The notes below the pieces were generated by a model. That model worked only from the letters and a program-made list of their open reading frames with translations, was not told the DNA's origin and did not search any database. A program made the position numbers and the translations under genes. Shown in pieces: positions 10,176-62,661 of a stretch of 64,000 bases of DNA. Numbering within the stretch: position 1 is the first letter of the stretch; every line of letters begins with the position of its first letter. Location of the stretch: assembly GCF_022539665.2 (NCBI RefSeq), contig NC_081333.1, positions 5,332,001 through 5,396,000 of the forward strand, written 5' to 3'. This DNA is from Daphnia carinata (Eukaryota).

Positions 10176-12718
10176 CCTGTAGAATGCTGTTCAGACGGGC
10201 TAGCGCGATGCTTTTATTTTACTCCAAGGTACGCCGGTTATCCTTAAACGGAAACAAAACCTCGTACCGACCGGAATCATCCCTCTTGATGGTACTCTGG
10301 TACATCTCCAGGAAGCTCGTATCTTCTGATTCTTGGGCCGTTACTCCCATGTGTTCTAAACTCCAAAACTCTCTAAAGTCAATCACGGACCGTTTGTTGT
10401 TTGCCGGTGACGCTAGTGCCGAAACTGTGTAGTCTCTCCCAGGGATCCAAAGATTATCCACCCGAGCTTACTCGCAAAAGTAACCGAGTCGTCGGGCCCT
10501 TGTACCGTCGCATTGGTCAGAATATGCCAATAATAATCGCACCCGATTATTATGTCAAATTCCTCCTTGCTATCGCCTTGTTCTGTTCGGTCGTCAGCGA
10601 GTTTCTCTTCTCGCCGCGACAGCATCTCTACCACCGTTGAATGAACCTTCGGTGTTGCCTTTGCTAGAAAATCCATCTCTGTCGCCCTACTTCGTATCTC
10701 CTCACCCGCCTGGGTTATTAGTTAGACATCGTATGATTTTGTTGTCTCCGTCCGGGCTTGAGCCAGCCCGAACGTGTTTATCCTTAGCTCCTCGGCCTCC
10801 TCTTTTGCCTTGGCTGCCTTTCGCCCGAGCTCTCGTTTGATATACGATCTCTGGCTCCCAGAGTCGATCAACCCGAGAACCGGTATTTTGCTTCCCGACT
10901 TCTCTTGAATGAATGCTGTGAATGTTGGTAGGCCGTTGGACGTCTGCGCCACGTTTATGTTGGTGTCAATAGGGACAGATCTGCCGACGGTTCGTTGTCT
11001 GGATAAGCATAACGCATGGTTGTGATCCAGACTGTTGCAGTTTCTGCACGGCACCTTTGCCATGCAGTGTTCGGTTCTATGTGACCGGCGCAAGCATTTC
11101 AGGCACCGGTTGTCCCTTTCGCACATTTCTCGTCGGGCTTGAGCCGTATTCACCGTACACCGGTGACGAATATGGTTTTGTTGACAGAAGAAACATGAGG
11201 CTTGCCGAGAGGCTCTGTCTTGTGTCTCCGTTCTCGAGTAGCGTCGCCGCTGGCCTTCTCGACGTGTTCTCTTCCATTTCCCTCAGCCGAATTTCCGTAT
11301 CTAATTCCTTGAGGATCATATCCAGCGTTGGTTGATCCCAATCAAACCATTTCTCCCTCTAACACCTCGAGGTGGGTGACTGGGGTAGAGCTTTCAGGAG
11401 ATCGCCCGCAATATACGAGCCGTAGCTCCCCATATCGACCTTGAGGCTCGCTAAGGCAAGTTTGGTGTTGGTGAGTCCGTCGAACATGGCTTGTAGCTGC
11501 TCGATAGTGGCGGACTCGCCTAATCGGCTTGCTATGAGGCTTCTCAGCTCATTCATGTAATGTGGTCTTTAATTTTTCGGGGTCTCCAAAACGGGACTCC
11601 AACCTCTCCATCGCTGCTTGAAACTGGTTATCGTCGAAGTGGAGGTGAGTTATGAGTTCCGAAACTTTCCCCCTTCAAGCTTAGGCGTAAGTATTGAAAA
11701 AAGACCTCCGTTAGTCTAACATCGAGGTCGTAGGTTGCCCAAATGGCTCTCCATCCTTTCCATGCGGTTTTGTCTCCATTAAAGGTGGGCAACGGTAATG
11801 CAGTTCTCACTACCGACGACTACGCCTCGATCTTTTTATTTTTTCTCTAAGTCTCTTCATTTTCTTGCGGAATTTATCTTCTAAATCCCGATCCTTCGCT
11901 CTCTCTACGACCGTGGATACTTGCGCCAGGCTTTCGTTGAGGACGACTATTGCTGTCCACCTGGCTTCAGCTCTGTCCAAGTATTGCTCCCTGTTTTATT
12001 TGTCGGTATCCACTAAAGCGATGCTTTTCAATAGCTCCTTGCGGATAAACTCCCTGTCTTCCGAGAGCTCGACCCTGGAACCCCCGATAGTCTCGGCCCG
12101 TGAGGACGAGCGAAGCGGTTCTGACCGCCTGATCGGGCTATTCTCCTGCGCCGGCATGCTTTCTTCTCGTAGATCTCTGATCTCGTCCTTTGCTTGATTA
12201 ATGATGTTTTTAAGTTCTTCCTTGACGGTCTCCACGATCATCGGGATATGCTCCTCCCAAGAGCAGCTTTGTCTGGTCTGCTCCATTAATTCGGCCGCGG
12301 AGTTTAACGCTCCGTTACTACGCTCATTGATAGTGTTAATTAACTCTGTCAGAGATTCAATCCTTTATTCTACTTCTTGGTAGCCCTGAATCTTGTTTAC
12401 TAACTGTTCTTTACGGTTCTGTATCGGGGCTTCTAGCTCTCCGCGGGCTCTTTCCCCTATCTCCCCTTCTAACTTGTCTAATTTTGCCTGAATCTGATGA
12501 GATGCCGCGGCCTGGGCTACCATCATATCCCTCAGCCGTCGTATCTCGGTTTCGACATGGCTCAATCGTTGTTCATTGTGAGAGTCTTCCGAAGAGCCCG
12601 AGTTTCTGCTGGTCGAGCTGCCGTCGGTATTTTGGGTCGGCTCGGACCTGACTTGTCGAGGGAAAAAACGGGATAATGTTTTGCTTTGATGTGCTTTATT
12701 AACGAAGTCCAACAACAA
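10176..12718 (-). pseudogene. gag: Bel/Pao gag-protease, multiple frameshifts
   Basis: ORF pieces are collinear with ORF 52691..55621. Confidence 0.9.
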
Positions 12719-12730
12719 GTATATAAAGTT

Positions 12731-13445
12731 TCATGTCGAATACGGCGAGCGGAAAATTTCGTCTTCGTCTGGCGAAGACAAGAGCCCGGTTTTCGCTAAT
12801 TTCCAAGCGAGTTGCTTGTTGGCCTATTCTTCTTCCACAATCCGCTTGCACTTTCTGGGAGTGTTGGCGGAAGATTCGGATTCTTTCGGGGTTTCCTGGG
12901 GCCCCGTCGCCGGCTTTGGTACATGTTCAGCCGGGGGTTTGGTTGAGGTTGATGACTTCGTGGCGATAGCGAAGCAGTTCCTGGGTTCAAGGAATATTGG
13001 GGCCGAGGTCCTTGACCTTGTCAACGCCTGCTCCCTCCTCAAGATTTCCTCTTTGTCCCTCCGAGGACGGCTAGTCTCCAGGAGGTATCTTGCCCGACTT
13101 TCGGCTTCTCCGGTTGCCTTCTGAGACGCCGAAATAACCTCTGAGTGCAACTCCTTCACTTGCTTTAGGGCCGCTAGCTGAGCCCTCTCTTGTTCGTTCA
13201 GGTATTGGTCAGGCGTATCCAAAGCCATCTGGATAGGCCGGGCGTAGGGGCCGGATCTTCTTGTGTGCGGTCCTCCCCGGTCTCTGCTCCGGGAATGGCA
13301 CTGGGATTCGGAGCTTTCGAAACACCCTTTTGGAATTTTCCGCTCAAGTTCCTTCCACAACTGTACGAGCGGGTGTCGGCGTCGAGAGGGGACTAGAACC
13401 GTGCGAACACGGCGTGCTGGTGATGTGTCAGGAGACTATCCGACA
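12731..13445 (-). pseudogene. Bel/Pao accessory ORF0 homologue with internal stops
   Basis: SDSLL..HAVFARF, LWKELERKIPKG, GPYARP, DTPDQYLNEQERAQLAALK and KLAKTGLLSSPDEDEIFRSPYST* align with 51865..52565. Confidence 0.8.
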
Positions 13446-13543
13446 CTGTAATGAGAAAAAAATGTTTTGGGTTTTATTGTTATTAAGGATATATATATTT
13501 TTGTGTTGTGTGCTTGTTGTTTTTTTTTATTCTGGGTCGGCGC

Positions 13544-13561
13544 CTCCGGTTCGAAGGACCA
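13544..13561 (-). promoter_or_regulatory. Primer-binding site, tRNA-Tyr type
   Basis: TGGTCCTTCGAACCGGAG, 2 nt after the LTR end. Confidence 0.85.
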
Positions 13562-13563
13562 AA

Positions 13564-14577
13564 TGTGGAATATCCTCCACCGTCGGAGACTGCCGACTCA
13601 GGGTTGTGATTTGGCGGGAGGTCTGGTGAGGCCTAGCCCTTGTAAGGAGCCAGCGTATTTTTAGACGGAGTCTCGATTGGGAGTTAATTGTAGACGGAAG
13701 GTCACTTATGGGGAACACGACCGGGAAGTGGGGCAGGTTTATGGGCCGTTACACATTACAGCGCCAAAAAGAACCGTACCTAGGAAAAAATGATGCGTAA
13801 ATGGAACAGGAAAAAAATATAAAATTACTTGCAGATTTAGCAGAGGAGGTTCCGGGGGTGCTTGAGATCTTGATGCGACGCGGCTGCAGGCGGGAAGCAG
13901 GAGGCGGACGACAACGTGGGACGGCAGCGGGACAGCGATAACGGCGGACACTCAAAGACACAACAAGGCACACCAAAAAACACTAGAAAAGGGCTACCTT
14001 AAATGAAGAGAAGTGAGCCGCTTCGGTGAAAAAATGTGTGTGTATTATCCGGGCCTGAGTGGCCCTCATATACCCATACAAAAACCCACGGTTGACAGAT
14101 AAACATAATTAATGGAACATAAGTTTAAACGCTGGTCCAGAGGCCGCCTCTGATTCTTCTTTCTTCTGACCGCGGGATAACCCCTTCCCTCGACACTTCA
14201 ACCTTCCCCTTTCCGATGCTCGAAGGGATTTTCCTGCGGCTACCATCCTTCTTCCTGCCGCTGGTTTTTAATATTCGATTCCTTCTTTCGTCGCTAGAGA
14301 CTGTTCCATGTAGATGGGAAAGTCGTTAACATATTTCAATATCATAATATGGGTTCCCGGTCTTTCATTATTCAATCATGCGGTGCGGTGGTCTTAACCC
14401 CCGGCCACGCTTACCCCTTAGTCCGTCGTACGGTGGGTCTGTTTTAAGTCGCGGAACTCGGCTGGATTTGTCCGCCTGGAGCTTCCGTCTCTCCGTCCAC
14501 AGGGTTTTCACCCAAATCTTCTGTTATTGGCCCGGCCTGGACCCCTGACTGTGGGTCGGACGTCAGATTTTCCGACA
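13564..14577 (-). repeat. Bel/Pao 5' LTR (~1014 bp)
   Basis: Minus strand TGTCGGAAAATCTGACG...TTCCACA; both ends are homologous to the LTR at 50697-51790. Confidence 0.9.
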
Positions 14578-25001: not shown

Positions 25002-25004
25002 ATT

Positions 25005-25022
25005 TGGTGCACCGACCGGGAA
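25005..25022 (+). promoter_or_regulatory. PBS, probably tRNA-Gly
   Basis: TGGTGCACCGACCGGGAA is nearly complementary to the tRNA-Gly(GCC) 3' end. Confidence 0.65.
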
Positions 25023-26422: not shown

Positions 26423-27782
26423 GTGACAAGAATCGAAGAATATTTCGAACGTCGAGCTTCATTTGTTCAATCCTTTAGCTCCAAATCTCCAAGCCTACGA
26501 CACCATACTGGAATAACACAAGTGAACGTTATCACTCCAGCAGAAGCCGATTTAGCCGCCAAAGCAGTTGTAACGCCATACGAGCAGCACCGCGCAGACG
26601 ATGACGCCGTCTCCTCCGTCTCACAGGTTTCTACCCAATCCCAAATTGAACTACGTGTGCGTCTGCTAGAAAAACGAGAGGAACGCCGGCAGCATGAAGA
26701 AGCTCTAAAACAATCACAGCAGAGCGTCTTAGCTCAAACCCGTGAGCTAGCCCAAGCCCAAGCAAAGATCCAGCAGTTGAGCAACGAGTGGCAGACAAAC
26801 CAGCCACGTCAAGAGACCATGGAGCTTGAACGACAACGCCGCTACGAGCGTGAGCAAAAAGCATTGCCTGAAGAACACACAGCGGCAATGGAAAGAATGT
26901 TCGACCGCATCAAACTTTTGGAACAGACGAATAGGCAATCTGTGCTCAACTGGAGCGATCCCACTCCATCACCCGAAAAGACAAGCGCCGCCGTGCTTCC
27001 ACCTGAGAGTCTCCCCTTCAAAACATCAGATGGTCTGCGCCCACCCGAGATGCATAGGCAGAAGCCTGAGAAATGGTACAGTCACATGTCACTAACATCT
27101 AGCAACGACCGAAAGGTAGAGAGCATTCCGGACTTTTCGACGACCGATAAAATGGCCCTATTACGGCACTGCCTCGCTCCCACCGTCCGCAGATTCCTGG
27201 GAGACTGCCTTAACAGACCAGCGCTCTACGAAGAAGCACTGGAGCAACTAGAGCAACTGTTCGGCCATCCTCATGTACTCGCGGACTCGTACATCCGTAC
27301 CATCACTTCCCTTCCTGCCCTGAAAACTTCCCGAGACTACAAGTCTTTGCTAGAATTAAGTTCAACGTTAAGGGGCGCCGCAGCCTCCCTACGCACCATA
27401 AACTGCAGCGCCGCCCTCGGATCATCCGCATTGTTGTCTACCCTCATCGACAAACTTCCAGATGACATCAATGGGCAAGAAAATCGTTAAAGCATATCCA
27501 AAGAGGCTCACCCTCGAAGTCTTTCACTGCTGGCTGCACGATGTAGTCAAAGCTGAAATGGTCGTGAAACACCCGCTCTTTACTTCGGCAAGCAACGATC
27601 GAAAATCAGACAAGGGCCCTGGTCGGACGAAATATACTCACCCTGGCGTTTATACCACGGGGTGCCCGGTTGAAACGAGGGCCACTCTTTCTGAAAAGTT
27701 AGAAAAAACGGTTATGCACAGCGCAGCCGAAAATGCAGCGTCAAAAGGTCCCTGTGCGGTATGAAGGAGACCGCACACCTTA

Positions 27783-36570: not shown

Positions 36571-37518
36571 CTTGAAGTACCTTGGTCTGGAATTCTGGAT
36601 TGTGGAAAATAAATGAAATTTAGTGCTTGAAATCATACTGTAAAGTGTACTTAAAAACACGTTCACAATTTTTTCATTCAAATTGGTTGAGTAGTTTAGT
36701 CATAAACACCTTTTTGGAAAATATAAAAATTAAACGAAAAAAAAATTAAGGGCGAAAAACCGGACATCCGCTGTACCACATTAGACATGGTCTTTAAAAT
36801 TTGCTGCATTGAAGATACACGTTTCGAAAAAATAGTGTGACGTTCGGATTTCATTAAGCGATTTATGTATGTATTAAAAATATCATAAACGGAATTTAAT
36901 TTAATCGAAATTTGTCAATGATTGACGGGGGGTGTGGAATAGGCAAAGTAGCTTGAAAAAAATGAAAATAGGAGGGGCTTGTTAAGTATCAAGTATTTAT
37001 TTACTATCGATTACCATTATCAGAAGGAGATAGCAAACAACCCTTTGAAACTTTCAGCTTTCAGCCTTTGTTTAGGATTCTCTTTCGTAACTAAGCAACC
37101 CAAGCCCCACCCCAAAATATCGTTTGCGTCTGATATCACCCCCAAAACTGCCCAGTATCTCCCAACGGAAGATCATTTGTTAAAACGTTTATAAATTTTA
37201 ATCACTTGTCCTAGAAATGAAAACAAACCGGGGAATTTAAAAGGGAAGAAATAGCTTTTTTTATTATTACCAAAACTGGTTCATGGTGGTTTTCGAGCGA
37301 TATGAAAAATTGTAGAAGCCAAAAAAATGAAAAAGTAGCTGTTTTTAATTTTTGTGATAACTTTACGAATACTTTTAGTATATTTTTTAAGATTAAGGCC
37401 TAAGTGTGGAATAGAATTTCCCGTCACACAGTATTTTTAAAATTTTATTTCATAAATACCCTACCGAGTTATTGCGGCTGTCCAATCTGATACGTGTCCA
37501 GTTTGGTCCGCTCTCCCC
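36571..37518. mobile_element. One end of a TA-TSD TIR element (copy of part of 61489-62723)
   Basis: Ends GTCCAGTTTGGTCCGCTCTCCCC-TA. Confidence 0.65.
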
Positions 37519-38970
37519 TACAGGATTAAAATTAAAAGAAAAGGACATAATTCCCTTGCAGAGAGTATATATAGTTGTTGTTCGAATCCGTCAAATTTTC
37601 TGTAGAACTTTTACATAAGTCATTCGGGTCACTAATTTTATTTCATTTTTTTCTTTCCATTTTAAAGGGTAGGACTGGTTTTGCAAGTATTTATGACAAA
37701 CGCGAAGCTACTGAAGCTGCACCTAGCCTGTTGGCATAGTTTTGTCTCAAAAATTCTTAAACCTAATCAAGTTTTTCTTACGACAACTCGTCGATGAAGC
37801 TCTCGATGAAAATCGTTGTCAAAACCAATGAAAAAGTTTCTGCTCTTACAAAGATTTTGTGTAAATTTTGCTTTTTAAAATTTCTTGCAAAATTTTCACA
37901 TACAAAAACGAATAAAACAGAAAAGAAGACCATTAAACCATCGCTGATATTTTTTATGACACCAAAACAAATACTAAACGTATTTTCTAGCCATCTAGTA
38001 GGCTACATGGAAAAAGAACAGAATCAGTGGCATACCTCTCACTAAGGAACATCGGAAGCAATAATCGGTACTCCCCGTAATTCCTGTGCAATAGATATGT
38101 AGTCCAACCAGATGGTTGGATACAAGCACAACTAAACATAATGAAACAGTTACTACAATTCCATACAAGCATCAAGTCAAAATTAAATCAAGTAAACATG
38201 TTTTAGTCATTAACGATTCTTAAATATCTAAGAGTCCCGAATTGGTTTCGCGGTGTCTTCAGGAATAGCCTAGGCTGATAACTATCCTGCTGTTAGTTAA
38301 TTATTTTCTCTTTAAATTGTCATTCAAACAACGTAGAATAATACATGACTTTCAATTTTGAATTGGATGTATTTTCCAAACGGTGGCATATTAGTTCCAA
38401 TATGTTATATTATCAGAATAAGCTTTCTTACCATCAGCAGCTAACACATCGCAGGAATCTAAAGTTCTGAAGTGCTGAAGCTTACTTTTATCCTGCTGTA
38501 GCTACACATTAATTTATCATCGTAGCTATCAAGACATAGACAAGAAAAGTGAACTTGGATGTACCGACCGCCGTTTTTTCTTACTCCTGAGGAGGTTGCC
38601 ATACATTGGCTGCTTCGCAGCTGTTGCGTCACACGCACGAATAACCTCTAATATTTTCAACCATGACATTAGAAATATTTCCCAGTTATTAAAAATTTCA
38701 GAGAAGAAACCATGACTGCAGTAGTTTCTCGCCATCATTGACGTATTAAGCATTTCGGGTTTATTTCTGTTTTCTGCGGAATGTGCCAAATAATGATTGT
38801 CCTAGTGTTGTTTGGTTATTATTTCACTTAAATTTTGTAGCAGCCGAGGGAGACCGTAAGACTTATAATTTTTAAACTGAGAAATTGTCGAACTTACGGT
38901 GCCATGTATTTCACTATGCAGCCGTAATCTGACTGAGACTAAAGGCGTCATGCTCGTCGTACGCGCGCAC

Positions 38971-39305
38971 CGGGAAACGTAAATATCCTATTCCACCTTA
39001 CTTGAGGAAATCGTCTTTTTTAATCACTTATACACCTCTCGTATATTAGTTGCAGCATGAGTGTCTCGGACACCCTCACATACCCTAATGCACTCGAATA
39101 TCGTATTTTTCCTTTACTTTTAGGCGTCCTCCTCGCGTCATCCTTAATACCATAAGCGCACAACGGGAAACGTAAATATCCTATTCCACCCTACTTGATG
39201 AAATCGACTTTTTTAAAGCAATTATACACTTCTCGTATATTAGTTGCAGCTTAGTATGTCGGACACCCTCACATACCCTAATCCACTCGAAGATCGTATT
39301 TTTCC
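38971..39305. repeat. Direct repeat, two ~142-bp copies (38971-39112 and 39164-39305)
   Basis: Shared CGGGAAACGTAAATATCCTATTCCACC...CGGACACCCTCACATACCCTAAT...ATCGTATTTTTCC. Confidence 0.85.
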
Positions 39306-40290
39306 ATGTTCTGGAAATGGCGGGTAGGTTTCAGTGGAATACATTATTACGGCCTTTGACGGCATTTCTGAATACGGATTCAGGAACTCCTGTGTAAAGG
39401 AAGTTTTCATCCCGTTCGACTTCTTCAATTAGATTGTAAGGAAGATAGGCACAATAATAATAAGTACCCGATGCAGTTTCTATTCGCCTATTACATGAAT
39501 ACTGTCTAACTGCGGGAGTTAATTATTCTATTAGCGCAATGAAACGACCGTAAGCTATCGGAGCTGTCTTTCGTTCGTCGCTTTCCGAGAAAGGCTGTAG
39601 AATGGGTTTCTTAGGTGATGAAACGGAATTCTTGACCGGTGGCGTGTTCTACTGCTTTTTCTAGAAGTAGGGGTTGCTGATTTTTACTATTCGAGCTTTT
39701 CCCCAGTTTGAAGAAAACTTTAAAGACTTTCAAGTACTTGGAATTAAAAAAACGGTTCTAGCCTCTAGATTATGAGAGAATATTTGGCATATCCAAGCAA
39801 ACATTTTACGATGTATAAGGAATATGAAGTATTTTAAAATTAATTTTCCTAAAAAAAGCTGTCGGACGACTGAAAATATGGAAATGCCAGTTTAAAAAAC
39901 AATGTTCAATCATATTTGTTTAATTTGTGATTCTATTTAATTCTTTTACCGAATAGATGGGAAAATTTATTTCACGAATGCAACAGATGCCGGATGTTAC
40001 TGACTCCCGTGCAAAGAGTCGTAACAAAGAAGAGAATGAGGGATGAGTGTTGATAAAGATGAAATGAAGATGACGATGATAAAACAAAAAGGGACTACTT
40101 TATTTCCGGACTTGGAAATAAAAGGGTGTGATGACACGCTTGATTGGGGAGACGGGAGCAAAACTGAAAAGACGAGACTAAGGCTAGACAACTTGTCTAG
40201 AAAACGAGACGGACGAGAAAAAGTGACTGTCTGGGTCAACTCTGAATTACTAACTACCCTTCCCGTGGAAAAGGGGTAAAAAAAAAAAAA

Positions 40291-50072: not shown

Positions 50073-50696
50073 GAAACTTCATTGACGCTTGCGAGCTCGC
50101 AAACAACTCTGTGATGAAGTTGGTTTTTTAGAACCTGAGTAGAGTGTAAGTGATCGCTGCCATATTTCGTATTTCCTTATTGTTTCTGCGTGGAACGCAC
50201 CAATAATGTAGTTCTGTTGAATTTCGTTTTTCTTTTTTGTTAAATTCTAAATAGATTTTTGTTTCCATCCAGTTCTAATCCAGCGGGTAATATAACATTT
50301 CGTTTGTGTAATTAGTTTCTACGAAACTTAAGTACAACTTAAGGGAACTATTGTATTCTAGAAAAAGCACGAGTTCTAAGCCATGAAAGTACCAAACAAA
50401 TATGTAGCGTACATCATATCATATAGTTCATTGGAATTTAAAAACGACTGGTGGGCGGGTGTCAAATGAGCTAGTTTATTTGAACACCTGTTAACGCACC
50501 TGAGTAAGCGCCCCAGAACCCTATCGACCCGAAATTCGTTTTTGTCATTGCAGGCTTTAACGTGTACGACACTTTGTGTTTAATGGTATTGCGTTGGAAT
50601 TGTGGCAGTTGGAATTAGTACAATTTTATTGTCGCTTGTTTTGGTACTCATCAAAATGAAGTGTTGTTACATTTTTCTTTTAATAGTGGTAGTGGG

Positions 50697-51790
50697 TGTC
50701 AGAAAATCTGACGGCCGATCCACAGTCAGCCGGTCGATCTGAGACCGGGAAAGAAAACACAGGACCGAAGAACGAAGGGACAGAAACCCTAGGCGGAGAA
50801 ATCCAGCCGAGGTCCGCAGACTACAAAGACACGCCGTTAGACGAACGAGACAGTAAACTTGGCCGGAGGAAAAGACCGATACGCCGTTTATTGAAACCGG
50901 GGGATCCGGACTATGATATCCAAATAACCGAACGTGTTTTACCTATATATGAAGAGGAGATCTGGCGAGAAAGAATCGAACCACCTACTAGGGACTCAAA
51001 CGGAAGAAATAGGGATAACTGCCGCCAGAAGTAACCTTGGAACATCGGGAAGGGGAGATAGAGATATCACAGGAAGAGATCATCCCGCGGTTTGAAGAAT
51101 GAAGAGTTAGCGGCGACCTCTGGTCCAACGTTGAAATCAATGTTCTAAAGTGATAAATTATCTGTCAACAGCGCGTGTTGTAGAGGTATAAAGAGGGGCC
51201 GAATAGGCCAAGAAAATACACTCACATTTCGAACACCAAGGAGGTCTATTGGTAATTATTGCTCCCACTTACTTGTTTCTTGTCGCGCTTGTTGTTTGCT
51301 GCCTGCCATCGTCTTTGCCGTTCGTCGCTTGCTGCCTGGTTGCCGCCCTTCGTCTCCACCAGCCGCCGATTCGTCGCTCGCGCCACTTACCGCCGCCGGT
51401 CACCGCTCGCTGATTGCTCGCTGTCTCAACGATCTTCGTTGCCAGCACCCGCCGCCGAGCCGTAGTCCGCGCCATTCCACTCTGACGTCCAACTTCGCCG
51501 CTACATCTCTTCTTCCAACAGTAAGTCCTTGCTAATACTTTACCTTTGTTACCCTTGATTAATATAGGTGTGGAACTGACCTTGCTGCCGGGTGTCCAGC
51601 CAGGAGAAGCCCGCTTGCCACGATAGTACCCCTAGACGGGCCGTACTATCCTTCTTTTCTACCGGCGATTCTGATACGAATCTACCGTCAACATACGCTG
51701 GCCCCTATAACGGGCTAGGCCAATCAATTTGTTCTTTCTCACTATCATTTCTCTGAGTCGGCAGTCTCCGACGGTGGAAGAAATTCCACA
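50697..51790 (+). repeat. 5' LTR (1094 bp)
   Basis: TGTCAG...TCCACA; TATAAA at ~51187. Confidence 0.97.
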
Positions 51791-51792
51791 TT

Positions 51793-51810
51793 TGGTCCTT
51801 CGAACCGGAG
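51793..51810 (+). promoter_or_regulatory. PBS, tRNA-Tyr type
   Basis: TGGTCCTTCGAACCGGAG. Confidence 0.9.
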
Positions 51811-51864
51811 TCCGCGACCCAAAAAAAAAACGACAAACAAACACCCCTATTTTTTCCATTACAG

Positions 51865-52565
51865 TGTCTGACAACCTCCTGTTGCAGCACCAAACAGCGG
51901 TCTTCGCCCGCTTCCAGTTTCTCTTGGACACCGATACCCGCAGCTACGAGCTCTGGAAGGAGCTGGAGAAAACCATCCCTAGAGGGGTATTCCGGAAGCT
52001 CCGCATCCCAGAGCCCTTTCCTGAGCAGAAATCAGGGGGAAAATCGACCGAGAAAAAGACCCGCATCACCCCGTACAGCCGGCCCGCACCTCTCTGTACC
52101 ATCGAGACCCCAGACCAATACCTCGACGCACAGGAGCGAGCCCAGCTAGCCGCGTTACAAGCCGTCCGGGACTCCAGCCCCGAGGTGATATCCGGGGCCC
52201 AGAAAGCCCGTGAAAACGCTGAGAAGCGGAGACAATTGCTGCTAGAAACCAGCCGCCTCCGCCGAGACAAGGAGAGCATTAGACGCAGAGAAGAAGCACT
52301 CGCCCAAGCTCGGAGTCTCACACCGGTGATAACCCCCGAGGCCCAGCCCGGACCTTCTCGACCATCCACTGCAACCGTACCAACCGCCGCCCCGGAGACT
52401 CCAAAACGCTCCAAGCACCGTACGCCCACTACCCCCCGGAAACTGCGAAAATTTGTCCAAGAGGAGAAAGTGGACAAACACCTAGCCCGAAAATTCGCCC
52501 GCACCGGGATCATCTCTGCTTCCGACGAGGAGGAAATCCTGAAGTCACCCCCTTTCTCCGCCTGA
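51865..52565 (+). CDS. Accessory ORF0 (233 aa, unknown function); predicted start codon formed by the splice 51520^51865
   Basis: Uninterrupted frame with no genomic ATG, conserved in the diverged element at 12731-13445. Confidence 0.72.
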
Positions 52566-52690
52566 AGAAAATAATAATAATAATAATATAATAATAATAA
52601 ATTAATTAATTAATTATATATATATATAAAAAAAAAAAACACACAAACTCTGTTCCTGTTGAGAAATATATAGTTAAAGCGCACCAATAC

Positions 52691-55600
52691 TTGAGTCAAA
52701 TGTCCGTACGCCAGGTTAGACCCGCACGACCGGCTGAAACCTCCACTTCATCCGATGATTCTCCGAGTGAACAACGGTTAAGCCAGGTGGAGACCGAAAT
52801 CCGCCGTATGAAAGAGATGTGGGCCACTCAAGCCGCGACGAACCGCCAAACCCAAAACAACATAGAAGAATTAGGTCGGACCGTACAAAAGAAAGCCGAC
52901 GAAGATGACCTAGAAACACTCACCGAAAGAGTCCATCAGTTAGAACAAAAATTACTCGAGTATAACGAGTTCGAGAAAAAACTAGAAACGATCACAGGCC
53001 TGATAGACGCCATAAACATCAGAAGCAACGACCCGTTACAGTCAGCGGCCGAAATCATAGACCGGGCCAATCAAGCTACCTCGTGGGAAATTCACATTCC
53101 GAGGATAGTGGACAGCCTTAAAGAAGACATCAAGGAGATCATCAACCAAGCAAAAGAAAGCCTCAGAGAAATACGGGACGACGATAGTCTCCCCGACCTG
53201 GAGCCCAGCCCGTTCCGCCCGGCCGAACCCCTTCGTGCTTCATCAAGAGCCGATAACAATAACGGGAGTGCCAAGTCAGAACTTCTAGAAGACCGAGACC
53301 TCATTCTTAAGGAACTTCGAGAAAGCATCGGACTAATGGACGCCGACCGGGTCAACCGAGAAAAATACCTCGACATCGCCGAAGCACGATGGCTTGCCAT
53401 CATCGCCATCCACGAGAAGCTAGCTCTGGTCTCTACAACTAAGGATAGAGCGAAAGACCGCCAAATAGAGGACAACTTCCGCGAAAAAATGAGGAGGATG
53501 CGGGAAAGAAACAAGAAATTCGAAACCCAGCCATCAGTTGCAACAAGAGCCGCGCTACCTCTACCCATCTTCAGCGGAGAAATCACCGCCTGGAAGGGAT
53601 GGAGAACCATCTGGGCAACATATGACCTAGACCCCCGGTTATCAGAGGTAGAAAAATTCCAATACCTCCGCCTCAGCCTGAAAGGGAAAGCCGCCGAACT
53701 CGTCGCCCATCTACCCTTCGACGACAATCAATACCGGGCAGCAATGGAGAGATTAGAATCTCGCTTTGGGGACCCCGAGAAGCTCAAGACCCACTATATC
53801 AACGAGCTACGACTCCTCGTTGCAACACGGCTGGGAGAATCCGCAACAACCGAGCAGCTCCAATCACTACTCGACGGACTTAACAACGCCAAACTAGCGC
53901 TGATAAGCCTCAAAATAGACATGGAGAGTTACGGAGCTTATATATCGGGAGATGTCCTGAAAACCCTACCACGATCACTCACCTCTAGATGGCTTAGGGA
54001 AAAGTGGTCCGACAGAGAAGAACCCTCGCTGGACATGATCCTAAAGGAACTCAGCCTGGAAATCCGATTACGAGAAAGAGAAGAAACTACGGCTAGACGG
54101 CCAGAACCACCGGCCCTTCCACGGGGGGAGACCCAGGATCGATCCACCCGTACATCCTGCTTCTTCTGCCAGCAAAATCACACTCATCACCGGTGTACCA
54201 TGAACACCCCACAGGCCCGACGAGACATGTGCGAGCGAGATAACCGCTGCTTTAAATGCCTAGGACGTTCACACCGGACAGAACACTGCATGGCACGAGT
54301 ACCATGCAGAAACTGCAACAGCCTGGATCACAGCCCGGCGCTATGCTTGGTCAGACAAAGACCCGCTAATAATCCGTTCAGAAACCAATCACCCCAACGA
54401 TCGACCGGGAGAACGGTCACGATTGACACCAACATCAACATGGCCCAAACATCAACAAGCCTTCCCACCTTCACGGCCTATATTAAGGGAAGAGAGGGGG
54501 ACAATATACCTGTCTTAGGACTGATTGACTCCGGCAGTCAACGAACCTTCATCAAACGCGGTATTTCCAGAAGAGCAGACCGCACGAATGAAGAGACCGA
54601 GGAGATTAGAATCAATACCTTCGGGCTAACCCAGGCCCGCATGGAAATAACGACATCCTGCGACATCTGGTTGGTCTCCCAGACGGGCGACGAGTTAAAA
54701 CTACGGGCAACCGAAATGGAGTTTCTCGCTAAAGCCACCCCGAGGATTCCCTCCACGGTGGCGCAACTAGTGTCTCAGCGGCGAGAAAGACTCGCCGATA
54801 ACAGGGAAAATCTAGACGACAGCAAGAAGGAGTTCGACATCATCATCGGGTGTGACCATTATTGGCGCATCCTGACCCACGAAACGCTGCAAGGATCCGA
54901 TGAATCGGTAGCCTGTGCCAGCAAACTTGGATGGATTATCTTCGGAGCTCCCAGCGAGGCTATCCACGTATCCACACTAACGGCGCCGACTAACAGCAGC
55001 AGATCCGTCATAGACTTCAAGGAATTTTGGAGCCTAGAGCATATGGGGGTAACGGCACAAGAAGCCGATGAACCCGGATTCTTAGAGGCCTATCAACGCT
55101 CCATTAAACGCGACGAAGACGGCCGATGTGAAATCCTCTTCCCGTTTAAAGACAACAGAAAAACCATGGAGACTAATAAAGGAGTGGCGCTGGCACGTCT
55201 CAACTGCCTGTTACACCGGATGAAGGGAGACGATCGCCGAGCATACCACGAGATCTTCCAACAATACATTGAGAGAGGATACATTGAAGAAGTGGACGGG
55301 ACATACACCGGCATCTGCACCTACTTACCACACAGACCGGTCATCAAACAAGAGGCCACATCAACCAAAATTAGGCCTGTGTTTGACGGTTCAGCACACC
55401 TTCAAGGTAGACCCAGCCTCAACGACTTGCTCGAAACAGGGCCCAATTTAAACCCAGAATTACTAGCGGTCCTGCTCCGATTTCGGCGATACAAGATCTC
55501 CTGGATGGCCGACATCACCCAGGCCTTCCTGCAGATCGGAATCCAGAAAGAACACGCCCAGATAGTTCGGTTTATTTGGGTCAGAAACCCCGACGACAAC

Positions 55601-58588
55601 CCGGTACAGCTAGTAGAGTAACGGTGGAAACGAGTGCCCTTTGGACTATCAAGCAGCCCATTCATCCTACGAGCCGTGATCCTAAAGTGTTTAGAAGAAA
55701 ATGGCCAAGACTTCCCAAACCTGGTCAAGCAGCTACGAGAACAAGTCTACGTAGACGACTGGCTGGGAGGGGCCGACAATGTCCCACAAGCGGCACAACT
55801 CATCTCTCAAGCACGAAAATTATTCACCGCGGCGAAAATGGAATTACGCAAGTGGACGACCAACAGTCTCGAATTGAGAGACGAACTACAGGACTTAGAC
55901 TTTCAGAACGAACCGATAAACATGGGCCAAGACCCCAGCGATACCATCAAGGCCCTTGGGGTAGCATGGGACCCCTCAACCGACACCTTTCGGTTTAACG
56001 CCCAGAGGATACTGGAAGAAGCCAACAAGCTAGACAAGCGACCGTCCAAGCGGAGATTATTCAGCCTAGCCTTAAAGGTCTTCGACCCCATGGGGTTAAT
56101 CTCCCCAGTAACCGTTATAGCAAAGGTTATTATGCAGAAGATATGGATCGAGAAAACTGGATGGGACGAGCCCGTACCAGCCAAAATCATGCCGCATTGG
56201 GAGACCTTCATTAAAGGGCTATCCGACTTGACCGACACGAAAATAGATAGATGAATCGGACCAGAAATCCAAAACCTTCATCTGTTTTGCGACGCCAGCG
56301 ACGACGCATACAGCGTCGCGGCATATCTTCAAAACGGAAACCAGACAAGACTTCTCTGCAGCAAGACAAGGATTGCACCAGATCCCAAGAAATCTGTATC
56401 GACCCCCAGATTGGAGCTACTGAGCAACGTACTCGCAGCCCGGCTTGGCCGATACATCGAGACCGCGTTCGCAACGGACCTCCAGAAAACCTTATGGGCC
56501 GACTCCTCGATCGCCTATTGGTGGATTAAAGGAGAATCGGGCCGTTGGAAACAATTTGTACACAACCGAGTCGCAGAGATTCGGGCAAACATCCCCGCCG
56601 ACGCAGTAAGACACTGCCCAGGGTTACAAAATCCCGCCGACATCGCATCACGGGGAGCTTCAGTCAGTACCCTCAACCACATGGAAGAATGGGGGGTTGG
56701 CCCGTCGTGGTTGAGCGATAGCAGCCGTTGGCCGACCGGTCCGACCGCCCCTGACTTGAAAGGAACTGTAGAAATTAGTAAAGAAGAAAAAACAATAAAA
56801 GAAATAACAATAGGTACGGTAGTCACCGAAGGACGATGGTACGAGCATCATAGTCGCCTGCGTTCCATCATACGGATTTGGGCGACGGTCCGAAGAGCGG
56901 CTAGCCGGTTTCAAGGAGGATCCAGCCCGGACACGTCAATGCCAGCCGTCGCCTTTGGAAGAGTCTTCCCAATGCTCACGGTGGAAGAAATAGAAGCCGC
57001 GGAGATAGACTTGTGGAGGGACGCTCAAACCAACGCTTACCCCGAAGTCATTAAAGCGCTAAAACAGGGTCAACCTCCCCGGCACGAGAAGCTACGAAAA
57101 CTTGGCCTCCTCTGGGACGAGAAATCCCGAGTGATCAGATGTGTCGGCCGCCACCAAAATTGGCTCAGCTACAACAACAAAACCGCGGTAATACTCATAC
57201 CGGAGGACCATTACCTGACGAAGAAAATCATAGAGCAGACACACGAGAGACTCCAACACACCGGAGTCAGCACAACGATGGTCGAGATAAGACGCACGTT
57301 CTGGATACCACTCCTAAGACAGACGGTCAAAAGGGAACTTCGCCGATGCGTCCGATGCCAGAAGCTGGACGCCCGAGCCTTTAATGAAATCCCGGGCCCA
57401 CTGCCGTTAGACCGACTACAAATGTCTAACCCGTTCGAAGTAACGGGAGTCGATTTTGCCGGACCATTCCCCCTTACGACGGGGCAAGTAAACACCGAGG
57501 ATAAGGGGTACATCTGCTTGTTCACCTGTGCGGTGACTCGGGCCGTTCATTTGGAAGCCACCACCGGACAAGACACAACTACATTCATTCACGCACTAAG
57601 AAGATTTTTTGCGAGGCGTGAAGTGCCGAAAGTAATGTACTCAGACAACGCCAGCGCCTTCACCCAAGCGGCTCGATACTTGAGGGCCTCATATAGAAGT
57701 GAACGTGTGTATAACACGCTTCTGGACCTCAAGGTAAAATGGAGATTTTCCCCAAGCTTAACTCCATGGTGGGGCAGCTTTTGGGAACGAATGGTACAAA
57801 CAGTGAAAAGACTGTTGTACAAAACATTCGGCAATGAGAGGCTATCGTACGACGTGTTTCAAACAGTACTAACGGAGATTGAAAACACCATCAACCTCAG
57901 ACCATTAACATACGTCTCATAGGACGACGACGAACCGTTAACACCGATGCAACTGATATCCGGACACCGACAACGTCAAAAACACCCAGTCGACGAAGAA
58001 GAAAGGGAATACTCGGACCGCACCGTAGTAACGCGGCGAGAAAGAAAACGAAGGAAGCTACTAGGAATCTGGTGGGAGAACTTTTACAAAGAATACGTAG
58101 CAGACTTAGAAAGATTCCACTGCCCGTCGCCAAACAACACAAAAACAGTGGAAATTGGACAGGTAGTCCTTGTTCATGACGACAACTGTAAACGGTCAAA
58201 ATGGAAGACAGGCCGAGTAGCCAAGATCTACCCCAGCTCCGACGGCAAGATCAGACGGGTGGCGGTATTAATTGCCGATAAAATGAAGGGAGTCGGCTCG
58301 ACACCGATCTACCGGGACATGAAAAATCTATTCCCTCTCGAACTCCACGCGGGGCAGATAGATGACGGCCCATCCAACACAGCACCCTTCCCGCCAGACA
58401 GAAACCCGCCGTCAGACTCTGACTCGGACTCTGAGTTGGACGATGGTCCAACGGGGGGAGTGTCAGAAAATCTGACGGCCGATCCACAGTCAGCCGGTCG
58501 ATCTGAGTCCGGGAAAGAAAACACAGGACCGAAGAACGAAGGGACAGAAACCCTAGGCGGAGAAATCCAGCCGAGGTCCGCAGACTAA
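52691..58588 (+). pseudogene. Bel/Pao gag-pol with stops at 55619 and 57920 and a lesion near 56250
   Basis: LPLPIFSGE; three knuckles; LIDSGSQ; ADITQAFLQI; YVDD; LHLFCDAS; HH..CC; GVDFAGP; SDNA; WERMV; DUF5641-like tail. Confidence 0.96.
58451..58460 (+). promoter_or_regulatory. Polypurine tract
   Basis: ACGGGGGGAG abutting the 3' LTR. Confidence 0.9.
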
Positions 58589-59568
58589 AAAGACACGCCG
58601 TTAGACGAACGAGACAGTAAACTTGGCCGGAGGAAAAGACCGATACGCCGTTTATTGAAACCGGGGGATCCGGACTATGATATCCAAATAACCGAACGTG
58701 TTTTACCTATATATGAAGAGGAGATCTGGCGAGAAAGAATCGAACCACCTACTAGGGACTCAAACGGAAGAAATAGGGATAACTGCCGCCAGAAGTAACC
58801 TTGGAACATCGGGAAGGGGAGATAGAGATATCACAGGAAGAGATCATCCCGCGGTTTGAAGAATGAAGAGTTAGCGGCGACCTCTGGTCCAACGTTGAAA
58901 TCAATGTTCTAAAGTGATAAATTATCTGTCAATAGCGCGTGTTGTAGAGGTATAAAGAGGGGCCGAATAGGCCAAGAAAATACACTCACATTTCGAACAC
59001 CAAGGAGGTCTATTGGTAATTATTGCTCCCACTTACTTGTTTCTTGTCGCGCTTGTTGTTTGCTGCCTGCCATCGTCTTTGCCGTTCGCCGTTCGCCGTT
59101 CGTCGCTTCCTGCCTGGTTGCCGCCCTTCGTCTCCACCAGCCGCCGATTCGTCGCTCGCGCCACTTACCGCCGCCGGTCACCGCTCGCTGATTGCTCGCT
59201 GTCTCAACGCTCTTCGTTGCCAGCACCCGCCGCCGAGCCGTAGTCCGCGCCATTCCACTCTGACGTCCAACTTCGCCGCTACATCTCTTCTTCCAACAGT
59301 AAGTCCTTGCTAATACTTTACCTTTGTTACCCTTGATTAATATAGGTGTGGAACTGACCTTGCTGCCGGGTGTCCAGCCAGGAGAAGCCCGCTTGCCACG
59401 ATAGGACCCCTAGACGGGCCGTACTATCCTTCTTCTCTACCGGCGATTCTGATACGAATCTACCGTCAACATACGCTGGCCCCTATAACGGGCTAGGCCA
59501 ATCAATTTGTTCTTTCTCACTATCATTTCTCTGAGTCGGCAGTCTCCGACGGTGGAAGAAATTCCACA
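58461..59568 (+). repeat. 3' LTR (1108 bp)
   Basis: About 7 substitutions and a 14-bp (GCCGTTC)x2 indel versus the 5' LTR (hand count). Confidence 0.97.
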
Positions 59569-59965: not shown

Positions 59966-62661
59966 GCATTTCCATATTTTCGTCTTCCGACAGCTTTTTT
60001 TGGAAAATTAATTTTAAAATACTTCATATTCCTTATACATCGTAAAATGTTTGCTTGGATATGCCAAATATTCTCTCATAATCTAGAGGCTAGAACCGTT
60101 TTTTTTAATTCCAAGTACTTGAAAGTCTTTAAAGTTTTCTTCAAACTGGGGAAAAGCTCGAATAGTAAAAATCAGCAACCCCTAGTTCTAGACAAAGCAG
60201 TAGAACACGCCACCGGTCAAGAATTCCGTTTCATCACCTAAGAAACCCATTCTACAGCCTTTCTCGGAAAGCGACGAACGAAAGACAGCTCCGATAGCTT
60301 ACGGTCGTTTCATTGCGCTAATAGAATAATTAACTCCCGCAGTTAGACAGTATTCATGTAATAGGCGAATAGAAACTGCATCGGGTACTTATTATTATTG
60401 TGCCTATCTTCCTTACAATCTAATTGAAGAAGTCGAACGGGATGAAAACTTCCTTTACACAGGAGTTCCCTAATCCGTATTCAGAAATGCCGTCACAGGC
60501 CGTAATAATGTATTCCACTGAAACCGCTAGCTTCAGCACTTCAGAACTTTAGATTCCTGCGATGTGTTAGCTGCTGATGGTAAGAAAGCTTATTCTGATA
60601 ATATAACATATTGGAACTAATATGCCACCGTTTGGAAAATACATCCAATTCAAAATTGAAAGTCATGTATTATTCTACGTTGTTTGAATGAAAATTTAAA
60701 GAGGAAATAATTAACTAACAGCAGGATAGTTATCAGCCTAGGCTATTCCTGAAGACACCGCGAAACCAATTCGGGACTCTTAGATATTTAAGAATCGTTA
60801 ATGACTAAAACATGTTTACTTGATTTAATTTTGACTTGATGCTTGTATGGAATTGTAGTAACTGTTTCATTATGTTTAGTTGTGCTTGTATCTAGATGGT
60901 TGGACTACATATCTATTGCACAGGAATTACGGGGAGTACCGATTATTGCTTCCGAAGTTCCTTAGTGAGAGGTATGCCACTGATTCTGTTCTTTTTCCAT
61001 GTAGCCTACTAGATGGCTAGAAAATACGTTTAGTATTTGTTTTGGTTTCATAAAAAATATCAGCGATGGTTTAATGGTCTTCTTTTCTGTTTTATTCGTT
61101 TTTGTATGTGAAAATTTTGCAAGAAATTTTAAAAAGCAAAATTTACACAAAATCTTTGTAAGAGCAGAAACTTTTTCATTGGTTTTGACAACGATTTTCA
61201 TCGAGAGCTACATCGACGAGTTGTCGTAAGAAAAACTTGATTAGGTTTAAGAATTTTTGAGACAAAACTATGCCAACAGGCTAGGTGCAGCTTCAGTAGC
61301 TTCGCGTTTGTCATAAATACTTGCAAAACCAGTCCTACCCTTTAAAATGGAAAGAAAAAAATGAAATAAAATTAGTGACCCGAATGACTTATGTAAAAGT
61401 TCTACAGAAAATTTGACGGATTCGAACAGCAACTATATTTACTCTCTGCAAGGGAATTATGTCCTTTTCTTTTAATTTTAATCCTGTAGGGGAGAGCGGA
61501 CCAAACTGGACACGTACCAGATTGGACAGCCGCAATAACTCGGTAGGGTATTTATGAAATAAAATTTTAAAAATACTGTGTGACGGGAAATTCTATTCCA
61601 CACTTAGGCCTTAATCTTAAAAAATATAATAAAAGTATTCGTAAAGTTATCACAAAAATTAAAAACAGCTACTTTTTCATTTTTTTGGCTTCTACAATTT
61701 TTCATATCGCTCGAAAACCACCATGAACCAGTTTTGGTAATAATAAAAAAAGCTATTTCTTCCCTTTTAAATTCCCCGGTTTGTTTTCATTTCTAGGACA
61801 AGTGATTAAAATTTATAAACGTTTTAACAAATGATCTTCCGTTGGGAGATACTGGGCAGTTTTGGGGGTGATATCAGACGCAAACGATATTTTGGGGTGG
61901 GGCTTGGGTTGCTTAGTTACGAAAGAGAATCCTAAACAAAGGCTGAAAGCTGAAAGTTTCAAAGGGTTGTTTGCTATCTCCTTCTGATAATGGTAATCGA
62001 TAGTAAATAAATACTTGATACTTAACAAGCCCCTCCTATTTTCATTTTTTTCAAGCTACTTTGCCTATTCCACACCCCCCGTCAATCATTGACAAATTTC
62101 GATTAAATTAAATTCCGTTTATGATATTTTTAATACATACATAAATCGCTTAATGAAATCCGAACGTCACACTATTTTTTCGAAACGTGTATCTTCAATG
62201 CAGCAAATTTTAAAGACCATGTCTAATGTGGTACAGCGGATGTCCGGTTTTTCGCCCTTAATTTTTTTTTCGTTTAATTTTTATATTTTCCAAAAAGGTG
62301 TTTATGACTAAACTACTCAACCAATTTGAATGAAAAAATTGTGAACGTGTTTTTAAGTACACTTTACACTATGATTTCAAGCACTAAATTTCATTTATTT
62401 TCCACAATCCAGAATTCCAGACCAAGGTACTTCAAGCTCTATCTGTACAGGATGTGTGTACGGAAAAATGCACCGCTTTCCATTCCATATCGGACGAGTA
62501 AGAGCAAAACAAGTGGGAGAGCTTATTTATTCTGATATATGTGGTCCAATGCACGAGGCATCACCCAGTGGTGCTCGATACTACGTCCTCTTTAAAGACG
62601 ACTGCAGTGGCTGGCGAGTAGTATTTTTTCTTAAAAACAAGTCTGAAGTTGCTGACCAGTT
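59966..62661. repeat. Right arm of the inverted duplication
   Basis: Reverse complement of 39887-39327 joined to 38482-36346. Confidence 0.93.

What the first reader, a model, noticed from the sequence alone, without database searches (positions are those of the whole stretch)
51520..52565. Bel/Pao accessory ORF0 whose ATG is created by a conserved LTR-to-leader splice that removes the PBS
Seen: a 701-nt open frame lies between the PBS and gag and has no ATG. The LTR holds a consensus donor, CCAACA|GTAAGT (51520/51521). The leader holds an acceptor, TTTTTTCCATTACAG|TGTCT (51864/51865). Joining them gives CAAC-ATG-TCT-GAC, in frame and in a good arthropod initiation context. The diverged minus-strand relative has the same geometry: GCAA|GTAATT (13829/13828) and TTTTCTCATTACAG|TGTCG (13446/13445) give ATG-TCG-GAT, although the intervening sequences differ over much of their length. 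Known: Bel/Pao elements normally have one gag-pol ORF, and spliced subgenomic RNAs are typical of 3' env genes. Inference: a PBS-less RNA that cannot be reverse-transcribed expresses an accessory protein, as in complex retroviruses.
Basis: partly seen in the sequence, partly recalled or inferred. Interest (0 to 1): 0.9.

Follow-up and report, generated by a model that had tools for sequence, protein, structure and literature searches.

The report
Splice-made start codon, hidden transposon gene
A jumping gene of the Bel/Pao kind, with relatives in water fleas, carries a conserved extra protein gene that has no start codon in the DNA; a splice likely creates one while cutting out the primer site needed for copying, so one RNA would make either this likely regulatory protein or the copying machinery.

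Summary
A young Bel/Pao element (50697-59568) has a 232-codon frame between the PBS and gag. There is no ATG in any frame from 51141 to 52699, and a donor (51520/51521) and an acceptor (51864/51865) sit where stated. ORF0 is a real gene: identity to the decayed second copy is 65/76/36% by codon position, and 48 related proteins were retrieved. All named ones are from Daphnia magna or D. sinensis, and the family is depleted of internal Met. The splice is supported only indirectly. In 30 of 32 relatives with an intact N-end the start column holds M, V or L, the residues of NTG codons. Public Daphnia gene models join LTR-derived text to Met exactly where other models read through Ser-Asn, which implies an A|GT donor. 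No RNA run was listed, so the junction itself is unseen. New details: a 47/49-nt T-rich segment ending TAG|GT follows the donor in both copies, and AATAAA follows ORF0. The protein has no known family or fold; a Rev/CERV-like nuclear regulator is my best guess. Each part has precedent in other retroelement families; nine paper searches found none in Bel/Pao.

The parts
50697..51790 (+). 5' LTR of element A (TG...CA, 1094 bp), preceded by target-site duplication GTGGG (50692-50696)
   Evidence: 7 substitutions and one 14-nt indel against the 3' LTR
51187..51229 (+). TATA box (51187-51192) and initiator-like sequence (about 51215-51229); inferred transcription start near 51222
   Evidence: sequence; conserved in copy B; the same stretch is translated as ...LYKG...NLTF in Daphnia models P0036 and P0040; start site not mapped
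51518..51526 (+). 5' splice donor ACA|GTAAGT; the exon's last base A would be the A of the ATG
   Evidence: best of 35 GT sites; base composition switches from C-rich to T-rich at this point
51521..51569 (+). 47-nt T-rich segment ending in TAG|GT: candidate mini-intron, recursive splice site or alternative donor
   Evidence: 43% T against 23-24% in the flanks; 49-nt equivalent in copy B; chance about 2% per copy
51793..51809 (+). primer-binding site (tRNA-Tyr type by recall), inside the predicted intron 51521-51864
   Evidence: identical in copy B; the same motif sits at 121 metagenome loci
51850..51864 (+). polypyrimidine tract and 3' splice acceptor; GTG at 51864-51866 is in frame with ORF0
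51865..52565 (+). ORF0: 232 codons after the junction codon; three-helix N-domain, PY-type basic motif, 63-residue helix, P/S/T-rich linker, conserved C-terminal helix and acidic-SP tail
52596..52601 (+). AATAAA in the ORF0-gag spacer, candidate poly(A) signal of a short ORF0 mRNA
   Evidence: also present in copy B (12700); expected by chance in A (87% of shuffles), less so in B (7.5%)
52700..58588 (+). gag-pol in one frame (DUF1759, RT, Peptidase_A17, Integrase_H2C2, rve, DUF5641) with premature stops at 55619, 56252 and 57920
58453..59568 (+). polypurine tract (58453-58460) and 3' LTR (58461-59568), followed by GTGGG
13564..14577 (-). 5' LTR of decayed relative B, with donor at 13829/13828 and TAG|GT at 13780/13779
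12731..13561 (-). copy B: PBS (13561-13545), acceptor (13446/13445) and broken ORF0 (13445-12731, about 44% amino-acid identity to A)
10177..12600 (-). copy B gag and start of pol, frameshifted; no match to the later pol segments

Best explanation
ORF0 is a conserved accessory gene of a Bel/Pao lineage with relatives in Daphnia; it has no ATG in the DNA, and its start codon is likely made by a splice from an A|GT donor in the LTR to the AG|TG acceptor after the PBS. SHOWN: the frame, the splice-like signals in both copies, an ATG-free leader up to gag, purifying selection, and a protein family with M, V or L at the junction column. INFERRED: the element's RNA works as a two-state switch. Unspliced, it keeps the PBS and has no AUG for about 1.48 kb, so a scanning ribosome passes through ORF0 to the gag AUG; this would explain why ORF0 avoids Met and out-of-frame ATG. 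Spliced (intron 51521-51864, 344 nt, cut in one step or in two through the TAG|GT site at 51567/51568), it gains an AUG, makes ORF0, cannot be primed for reverse transcription, and may end at the AATAAA after the stop. GUESSED (about 0.35 given the splice): the protein is a nuclear regulator of the Rev/CERV kind that lets the unspliced RNA leave the nucleus despite its splice signals. A transcription or anti-silencing factor is the main alternative.
For: (1) Codon-position identity of A vs B is 144/222, 169/221 and 80/220. (2) 23 relatives came from the 1.84-billion-protein search, 20 and 1 from profile searches; 48 proteins in all with cluster members. Homology starts at the junction column. 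(3) Of 48 proteins, 32 have an informative N-end: M 16, V 13, L 1, Q 1, W 1. M and V forms are interspersed on the tree, including identical sequences (P0004 M / P0031 V; P0015 V / P0021 L / P0033 M). (4) NCBI model P0035 has ...HFTATK then Met-Ser-Asp, while P0040 and P0017 carry the same LTR-derived text followed by Ser-Asn-Thr. A Ser codon beginning with the exon's A is AGY, giving a GTAAY or GCAAY donor. P0036 reaches Met 63 codons after the initiator text against 61 in P0040, and its near-identical relative P0037 reads through ...LFLFLIA-Val. P0040 itself begins at this Met. 8 of 17 informative NCBI models have Met. (5) Internal Met is 7 of 2788 residues in 12 chosen relatives against 33 of 1958 in A's gag-pol (Fisher p about 1e-7; the rows are related, so p is optimistic). 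(6) In 56 control loci with the same PBS motif, the first ATG lies 16-437 nt after the PBS, against 907 in A. (7) For the function guess: pI 10.0, no hydrophobic segment, an R/K-x-PY-x-R motif in 37 of 48 proteins and an acidic-L-x-SP tail in 20 of 48, and a long helix.
Against: No RNA, ribosome or peptide evidence was obtained. The gene models may be ab initio predictions and their DNA was not seen, so a genomic ATG in some copies cannot be excluded: the P0007/P0026 subfamily shows only M (4 of 4 rows), and P0001, P0005 and P0038 have no read-through text to compare. The 7 Logan M-forms are ambiguous, because prokaryotic gene callers write a GTG start as M (recalled). P0017 uses a different junction, 36 codons further on. 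In copy B the best-scoring donor would give G|TG, not A|TG. Out-of-frame ATG avoidance in ORF0 alone is not significant when the protein is held fixed (12% of recodings have none). Two of 32 relatives (Q, W) do not fit NTG. No sequence or fold match supports the Rev-like function.
Confidence: 0.75

Rival explanations
1. ORF0 is translated from the unspliced RNA by leaky initiation at the in-frame GUG (51864-51866, A at -3); most ribosomes scan on to gag, and the donor has another job.
For: The GTG is in frame in A and B and is implied by 13 V-forms. An ATG-free leader and Met depletion are expected under this model too. MDG1 sORFs upstream of gag are expressed without splicing.
Against: It does not explain the polypyrimidine tract conserved just upstream, the eukaryotic models that join LTR text to Met at an A|GT point, or the intron-like composition after the donor in both copies.
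Confidence: 0.12
2. The LTR donor mainly blocks premature polyadenylation (as in foamy viruses) or removes only the 47-nt mini-intron, or the TAG|GT site is the donor in use and gives a G|TG junction, that is a PBS-less gag mRNA. ORF0 then gets its start elsewhere or rarely.
For: The conserved 47/49-nt cassette ending TAG|GT. TAG|GTACGG is B's top donor. AATATA at 51561 is the only poly(A)-like hexamer found downstream of the initiator region in A's LTR. Foamy-virus precedent.
Against: Removing only the mini-intron would leave A|GT again, so a second step still gives A|TG. Both LTRs and both copies retain the segment. Met, not Val, dominates the spliced-looking NCBI models (8 M against 2 V and 1 L, my reading). 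This rival can coexist with the best explanation.
Confidence: 0.08
3. ORF0 is not a separate protein but an N-terminal part of Gag, joined by a further splice, a frameshift or read-through.
For: Three gene models run from ORF0 into gag-like text (P0038, P0042, P0048). CERV shares exons with Gag.
Against: The three fusions use different break points. Many full-length relatives end at the conserved ...SP-x-SA tail. The gag frame of A is closed until 52610 and gag has its own ATG. The search of longer proteins gave 1 hit among 7985 candidates, a composite model (weak evidence by the tool's own note).
Confidence: 0.05

Closest known systems
Springer-subclade errantivirus env (Senti et al., bioRxiv 10.1101/2023.08.03.551782; passages)
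   Same: Splicing completes the start codon: env is joined to an AU dinucleotide.
   Different: Metaviridae; a 3' env gene; AU|G, not A|UG; in Springer the donor lies 43 nt downstream of the LTR (PMC13097621, passages). Here the gene is 5' of gag, the donor is in the LTR, and the protein has no signal or membrane segment.
MDG1-group sORF1/sORF2 (Voichek et al., bioRxiv 10.1101/2025.03.14.642691; passages)
   Same: Accessory ORFs upstream of gag. sORF1 is nuclear and has a short transcript ending at an internal poly(A) site.
   Different: Metaviridae; about 110 and 70 aa; no evidence of splicing; sORF2 is a membrane protein. I did not compare the sequences directly.
Cer1 CERV (Sun et al. 2023, PMC10309623; abstract and passages)
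   Same: A novel protein from a spliced mRNA of an invertebrate LTR element; nuclear, needs phosphorylation at one serine, and is needed to export unspliced RNA. This is the model for my function guess.
   Different: Gypsy/Ty3; 517 aa; five exons, three in the gag frame, with the unique ORF downstream of pol. ORF0's function is untested.
Foamy-virus major splice donor (Schrom et al. 2013, PMC3694450; passages)
   Same: The donor is inside the LTR (R region), so it lies upstream of the PBS.
   Different: A retrovirus; the donor suppresses 5' polyadenylation and is needed for gag, pol and env expression. No splice-made start codon in the passages seen.
Belpaoviridae as defined by ICTV (PMC8742986; whole text)
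   Same: LTR size, genome size, PPT, gag-pol in one frame, domain order.
   Different: [quoted passage not shown]

Membership tests
Bel/Pao (Belpaoviridae) | LTRs of 0.2-1.2 kb, genome 4.2-10 kb, PPT before the 3' LTR | tested here: met
   LTRs 1094 and 1108 bp, element 8872 bp, PPT 58453-58460, 5-bp TSD
Bel/Pao (Belpaoviridae) | Gag and Pol domains in the order RT, RNase H region, integrase, with Pao-type Pfam families | tested here: met
   DUF1759, RVT_1 (below its cut-off), Peptidase_A17, Integrase_H2C2, rve, DUF5641 in that order
Bel/Pao (Belpaoviridae) | PBS complementary to tRNA-Arg or tRNA-Gly (ICTV profile) | tested here: inconclusive
   A PBS follows the LTR; by recall it matches tRNA-Tyr; no tRNA sequence was on hand (one search found none). 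12 of the 121 loci with this motif show similarity to A's Gag.
Bel/Pao (Belpaoviridae) | RT phylogeny within the family | not tested
   No reference RT set was fetched
env / env-like ORF3 | Position 3' of pol; signal peptide and membrane anchor | tested here: not met
   ORF0 is 5' of gag; highest 19-residue hydropathy mean is 0.64
MDG1 sORF2 / FAST-like | About 70-115 aa with one transmembrane helix | tested here: not met
   233 aa, no hydrophobic segment
Rev/Rex/CERV-like export regulators (functional class) | Made from a spliced RNA | tested here: inconclusive
   Indirect support from gene models; no reads
Rev/Rex/CERV-like export regulators (functional class) | Nuclear, binds or co-localises with unspliced RNA, needed for its export | not testable with these tools
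   Only suggestive features: basic, PY-type motif, long helix, SP tail
Rev/Rex/CERV-like export regulators (functional class) | Sequence or fold homology to a known member | tested here: not met
   No Pfam family shared by more than 1 of 34 members; no Foldseek match at E<=0.001 in PDB or BFVD. CERV itself was not compared directly.

The most novel reading that the evidence does not exclude
A 'complex' Bel/Pao lineage, the first I could find, in which one splice decides the fate of the RNA. The splice builds the only AUG of a new family of Rev-like regulators and removes the primer site. The 47/49-nt cassette with its AG|GT end acts as a recursive splice site and as an alternative donor, so donor choice (A|TG or G|TG) toggles between regulator mRNA and PBS-less gag-pol mRNA. 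The regulator's coding sequence has been purged of AUG so that it can double as the scanned leader of gag.
Probability: 0.25. Interest if true: 0.88.

Novelty: new variant of a known kind. Interest (0 to 1): 0.72.

Why it matters
Bel/Pao elements are described as gag-pol(-env) elements whose replication is poorly understood. A conserved accessory gene of a new protein family, with a splice-made start, would show that complex-retrovirus-style regulation arose in this family too. ORF finders and ATG-based annotation miss such genes, so others may be hidden in long LTR-element leaders. It is directly testable: Daphnia magna has relatives of this element and public RNA data, and one junction search would settle the main claim.

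Tried and rejected
No whole genome is held for the window, so no further family copies could be aligned. The sequencing-run search for 51200-53200 listed no RNA holder; this is no evidence either way, and no reads could be laid. Searches for ORF0 loci found no confirmed relative: viral contigs, 5 and 49 pattern matches; metagenome contigs, 104 matches. The PBS scan of viral contigs gave 19 loci, taken as likely chance and not analysed. The PBS scan of metagenomes (121 loci, 28 of 64 parts scanned) held no ORF0 relative and served only as a control; 56 of the 80 loci with long flanks had 2 kb or more downstream and were counted, and many are copies from one assembly. Pfam, PDB sequence search, Foldseek (full model and N-domain) and the ESM Atlas gave no usable match. 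The single PDB sequence hit, dystrobrevin at E 9e-5, covers only the long helix and is read as a coiled-coil match. Atlas top hits of 0.84-0.90 are unnamed clusters and weak by the tool's own calibration. The wide VIA-align search did not complete. Rfam found nothing in 50600-52800. MAFFT's pairing of the A donor with B's TAG|GT site was rejected after the 47/49-nt cassette was seen. The AATAAA in A's spacer alone is not evidence (87% by chance). Logan M-starts were not counted as proof of splicing. I could not confirm that locus prefix OUZ56 belongs to the RNA-seq-guided gene set of PMC10570034 (0 occurrences), so RNA support of those models is unknown.

Full report
THE ELEMENT. Window 50697-59568 is a Bel/Pao LTR retrotransposon (copy A). 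Its LTRs are 1094 and 1108 bp and differ by 7 substitutions and one 14-nt indel. It has a 5-bp target duplication GTGGG and a polypurine tract. Pfam finds DUF1759, a weak RVT_1, Peptidase_A17, Integrase_H2C2, rve and DUF5641 in one frame from 52700, broken by stops at 55619, 56252 and 57920. A decayed relative (copy B) lies on the minus strand from 14577 to about 10177, with Gag-Pol segments at 47-65% identity. No genome is held for the window. All named relatives of ORF0 are from Daphnia magna or D. sinensis, so the host is probably a water flea (inference).

OBSERVATION. The donor, acceptor, PBS and 701-nt frame are as described in both copies. There is no ATG in any frame between 51140 and the gag ATG at 52700, the longest such gap in the window. 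From the inferred start of transcription to gag, 0 ATG are seen against 13.9 expected (0 of 2000 shuffles); ORF0 alone has 0 against 4.4 (0.3%); the first 701 nt of gag show no depletion. With the protein held fixed, out-of-frame ATG avoidance alone is not significant (12%). Copy B has 1 ATG in its leader and 2 in its broken ORF0. As a control I took loci that carry the same PBS motif: 121 were found, 80 had long flanks and 56 had at least 2 kb downstream. In these 56 the first ATG lies 16-437 nt after the PBS, against 907 in A. Many are copies from one assembly and a few may be chance matches. An ATG-free leader is normal for these elements; what is unusual here is its length and the gene inside it.

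ORF0 IS A GENE. A and B agree at 144/222, 169/221 and 80/220 of first, second and third codon positions. The exhaustive search gave 23 relatives, 4 of them at E<=1e-30; profile searches gave 20 of similar length and 1 longer. Two groups plus one outlier appear on a tree of the N-domain. Many full-length members end at the same acidic-L-x-SP tail. Internal Met is rare: 7 of 2788 residues in 12 hand-picked, related representatives against 33 of 1958 in A's gag-pol. In three gene models ORF0 text runs into Bel/Pao gag-like text (P0038, P0042, P0048), which ties the Daphnia relatives to the same kind of element; their break points differ, so I read them as model artefacts and not as a fusion.

EVIDENCE FOR THE SPLICE. 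A phase-1 junction onto ...AG|TG can only give M, V or L. Of 48 proteins, 16 lack the N-end; of the other 32, 16 have M, 13 V, 1 L, 1 Q and 1 W at that column. Many V-forms are preceded by Phe/Leu/Ser-rich text, as expected from reading through a polypyrimidine tract. M and V occur in identical sequences, so they do not mark separate lineages. The most direct case: NCBI model P0035 runs ...PDPRSLHFTATK into Met-Ser-Asp-Asn, while P0040 and P0017 hold the same text followed by Ser-Asn-Thr-Leu. That text is LTR-derived: upstream of it P0036 and P0040 read (LY)KG...N(T/N)LTF, which matches the translation of A's TATA and initiator region. If Met is A|TG, the read-through Ser is A|GY and Asn is AAY, so the donor is GTAAY or GCAAY, as in B (Ser-Asn) and close to A (Ser-Lys). 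P0036 reaches Met at nearly the same distance from the initiator text (63 against 61 codons), while its near-identical relative P0037 reads through to Val. P0040 starts at this Met. P0017 joins 36 codons further on, again where P0040 has Ser. Among 17 informative NCBI models, 8 have Met, 6 Val (4 look like read-through, 2 like junctions), 1 Leu, 1 Gln and 1 Trp; ordinary donors end in G about 80% of the time and in A about 10% (recalled). Limits: these are gene models, related to each other, whose DNA and RNA support I could not see. The D. magna LRV0_1 gene set used RNA-seq junctions for training (PMC10570034, passages), but I could not tie the locus prefix to that paper. Logan M-forms may be GTG starts. 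No sequencing run was listed for the window.

SPLICE-SITE ANATOMY. A's donor is the best of 35 GT sites and its acceptor tops a pyrimidine score; an A|GT donor this good arises in 1.2% of shuffles for A and 4.8% for B (recalled matrix). In B a second site, TAG|GTACGG, scores higher and would give G|TG. Both copies share a cassette: donor, 47 or 49 nt of T-rich sequence (43% and 55% T against 21-30% in the flanks), then TAG|GT (about 2% by chance in each copy). This fixes which donors are homologous. Removing this short segment would leave A|GT again, so two-step splicing yields the same ATG; using TAG|GT as donor would yield a PBS-less RNA whose first AUG is gag's. AATAAA follows the ORF0 stop in both copies, which is trivial in A's AT-rich spacer and less so in B.

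THE PROTEIN. AlphaFold2 on 34 sequences gives three short helices (2-44), a linker, a confident 63-residue helix (88-150), a disordered part and a late helix (199-212); mean pLDDT 74, pTM 0.36. The N-domain alone gives the same three helices. No Pfam family, solved structure or viral fold matches, and the ESM Atlas offers only weak unnamed clusters. The protein is basic (pI 10.0) with no membrane segment. An R/K-x-PY-x-R motif, which resembles a PY-type nuclear import signal (recalled), is in 37 of 48 proteins. A nuclear regulator is the simplest reading. An element whose genome carries strong splice signals must export unspliced RNA, and the Cer1 element solves this with CERV, a novel protein from a spliced mRNA (PMC10309623, abstract and passages). 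I therefore favour a Rev/CERV-like role at about 0.35, with a transcription or anti-silencing role close behind. This step is a guess by analogy.

MECHANISM AND RIVALS. Best model (0.75): unspliced RNA keeps the PBS and is scanned through an AUG-free 1.48-kb leader to gag; spliced RNA gains the AUG, loses the PBS and makes ORF0. Rivals: GUG initiation on unspliced RNA (0.12); the donor serving polyadenylation control, or only the short or G|TG splices (0.08); ORF0 as part of Gag (0.05).

WHAT IS KNOWN. The ICTV profile lists gag, pol and env only (PMC8742986, whole text). The D. pulex survey (PMC2996953) and the metazoan BEL/Pao survey (PMC3118150) have no occurrence of 'splic' and, in the passages seen, no 5' extra ORF; their supplements were not read. 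Precedents in other families: splice-completed AUG of springer env, MDG1 sORF1 and sORF2 upstream of gag without splicing, the foamy-virus donor in R, and CERV. Passages of PMC13524379, PMC7828637, PMC13097621 and PMC5408684 added only Springer's donor position and 3' extra ORFs. Nine full-text searches listed no paper on a 5' accessory ORF or a splice-made start in Bel/Pao. The library lacks most subscription journals, and Repbase and GyDB could not be searched, so this is not proof of absence. Earlier findings of this scan hold nothing on this family; one unchecked note reports a similar design in a chromovirus.

VERDICT. The feature is real, the extra gene is well supported, the splice-made ATG is likely but unseen in RNA, and the function is a guess. 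New variant of a known kind; interest 0.72.

Noticed in passing
window 51521-51569 and 13828-13778 (-): Both donors are followed 47 or 49 nt later by TAG|GT across a T-rich segment; candidate mini-intron, recursive site or alternative donor.
   Followed up: partly
window 52596 and 12700 (-): AATAAA in the ORF0-gag spacer of both copies; in B it is followed by a T-rich tract. The longest Logan contigs of P0004 and P0025 (1103 and 1148 nt) are about the size a short spliced ORF0 mRNA would have, but contig ends do not show RNA ends.
   Followed up: partly
window 51754-51809 and 13601-13545 (-): The last 37 nt of the LTR and the PBS are far better conserved between A and B than the rest of the LTR; likely signals for priming, integration or packaging.
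   Followed up: no
window 24990-27490 (+): A second, unrelated Bel/Pao-like remnant (weak DUF1759 match at 26246-27490), apparently interrupted by an AT-rich insertion; no ORF0 similarity by tblastn.
   Followed up: partly
window 697-5169 (+), 16675-19232 (-), 29184-30620 (-): Gypsy-type gag and pol, a Copia-type integrase and RT, and a further Gypsy-type RNase H and integrase: the window is a nest of LTR elements.
   Followed up: no
window 36346-39856 and 59995-62661: About 2.7 kb of 99% identical sequence in inverted orientation, 20-23 kb apart; probably two young copies of another element.
   Followed up: no
proteins P0001-P0048: Many neighbouring D. magna locus tags on one 10.1-Mb contig (OUZ56_029379 to 029859) encode ORF0 relatives, which suggests a cluster of these elements; ORF0 pieces are annotated there as host 'hypothetical proteins'.
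   Followed up: no
earlier finding e1-9795892, another genome: An unchecked AI note describes a chromovirus-type element with an ATG-free leader, a 233-codon orphan frame and a 49-base intron across the LTR end that would create its start codon; if real, the same design in another family.
   Followed up: no
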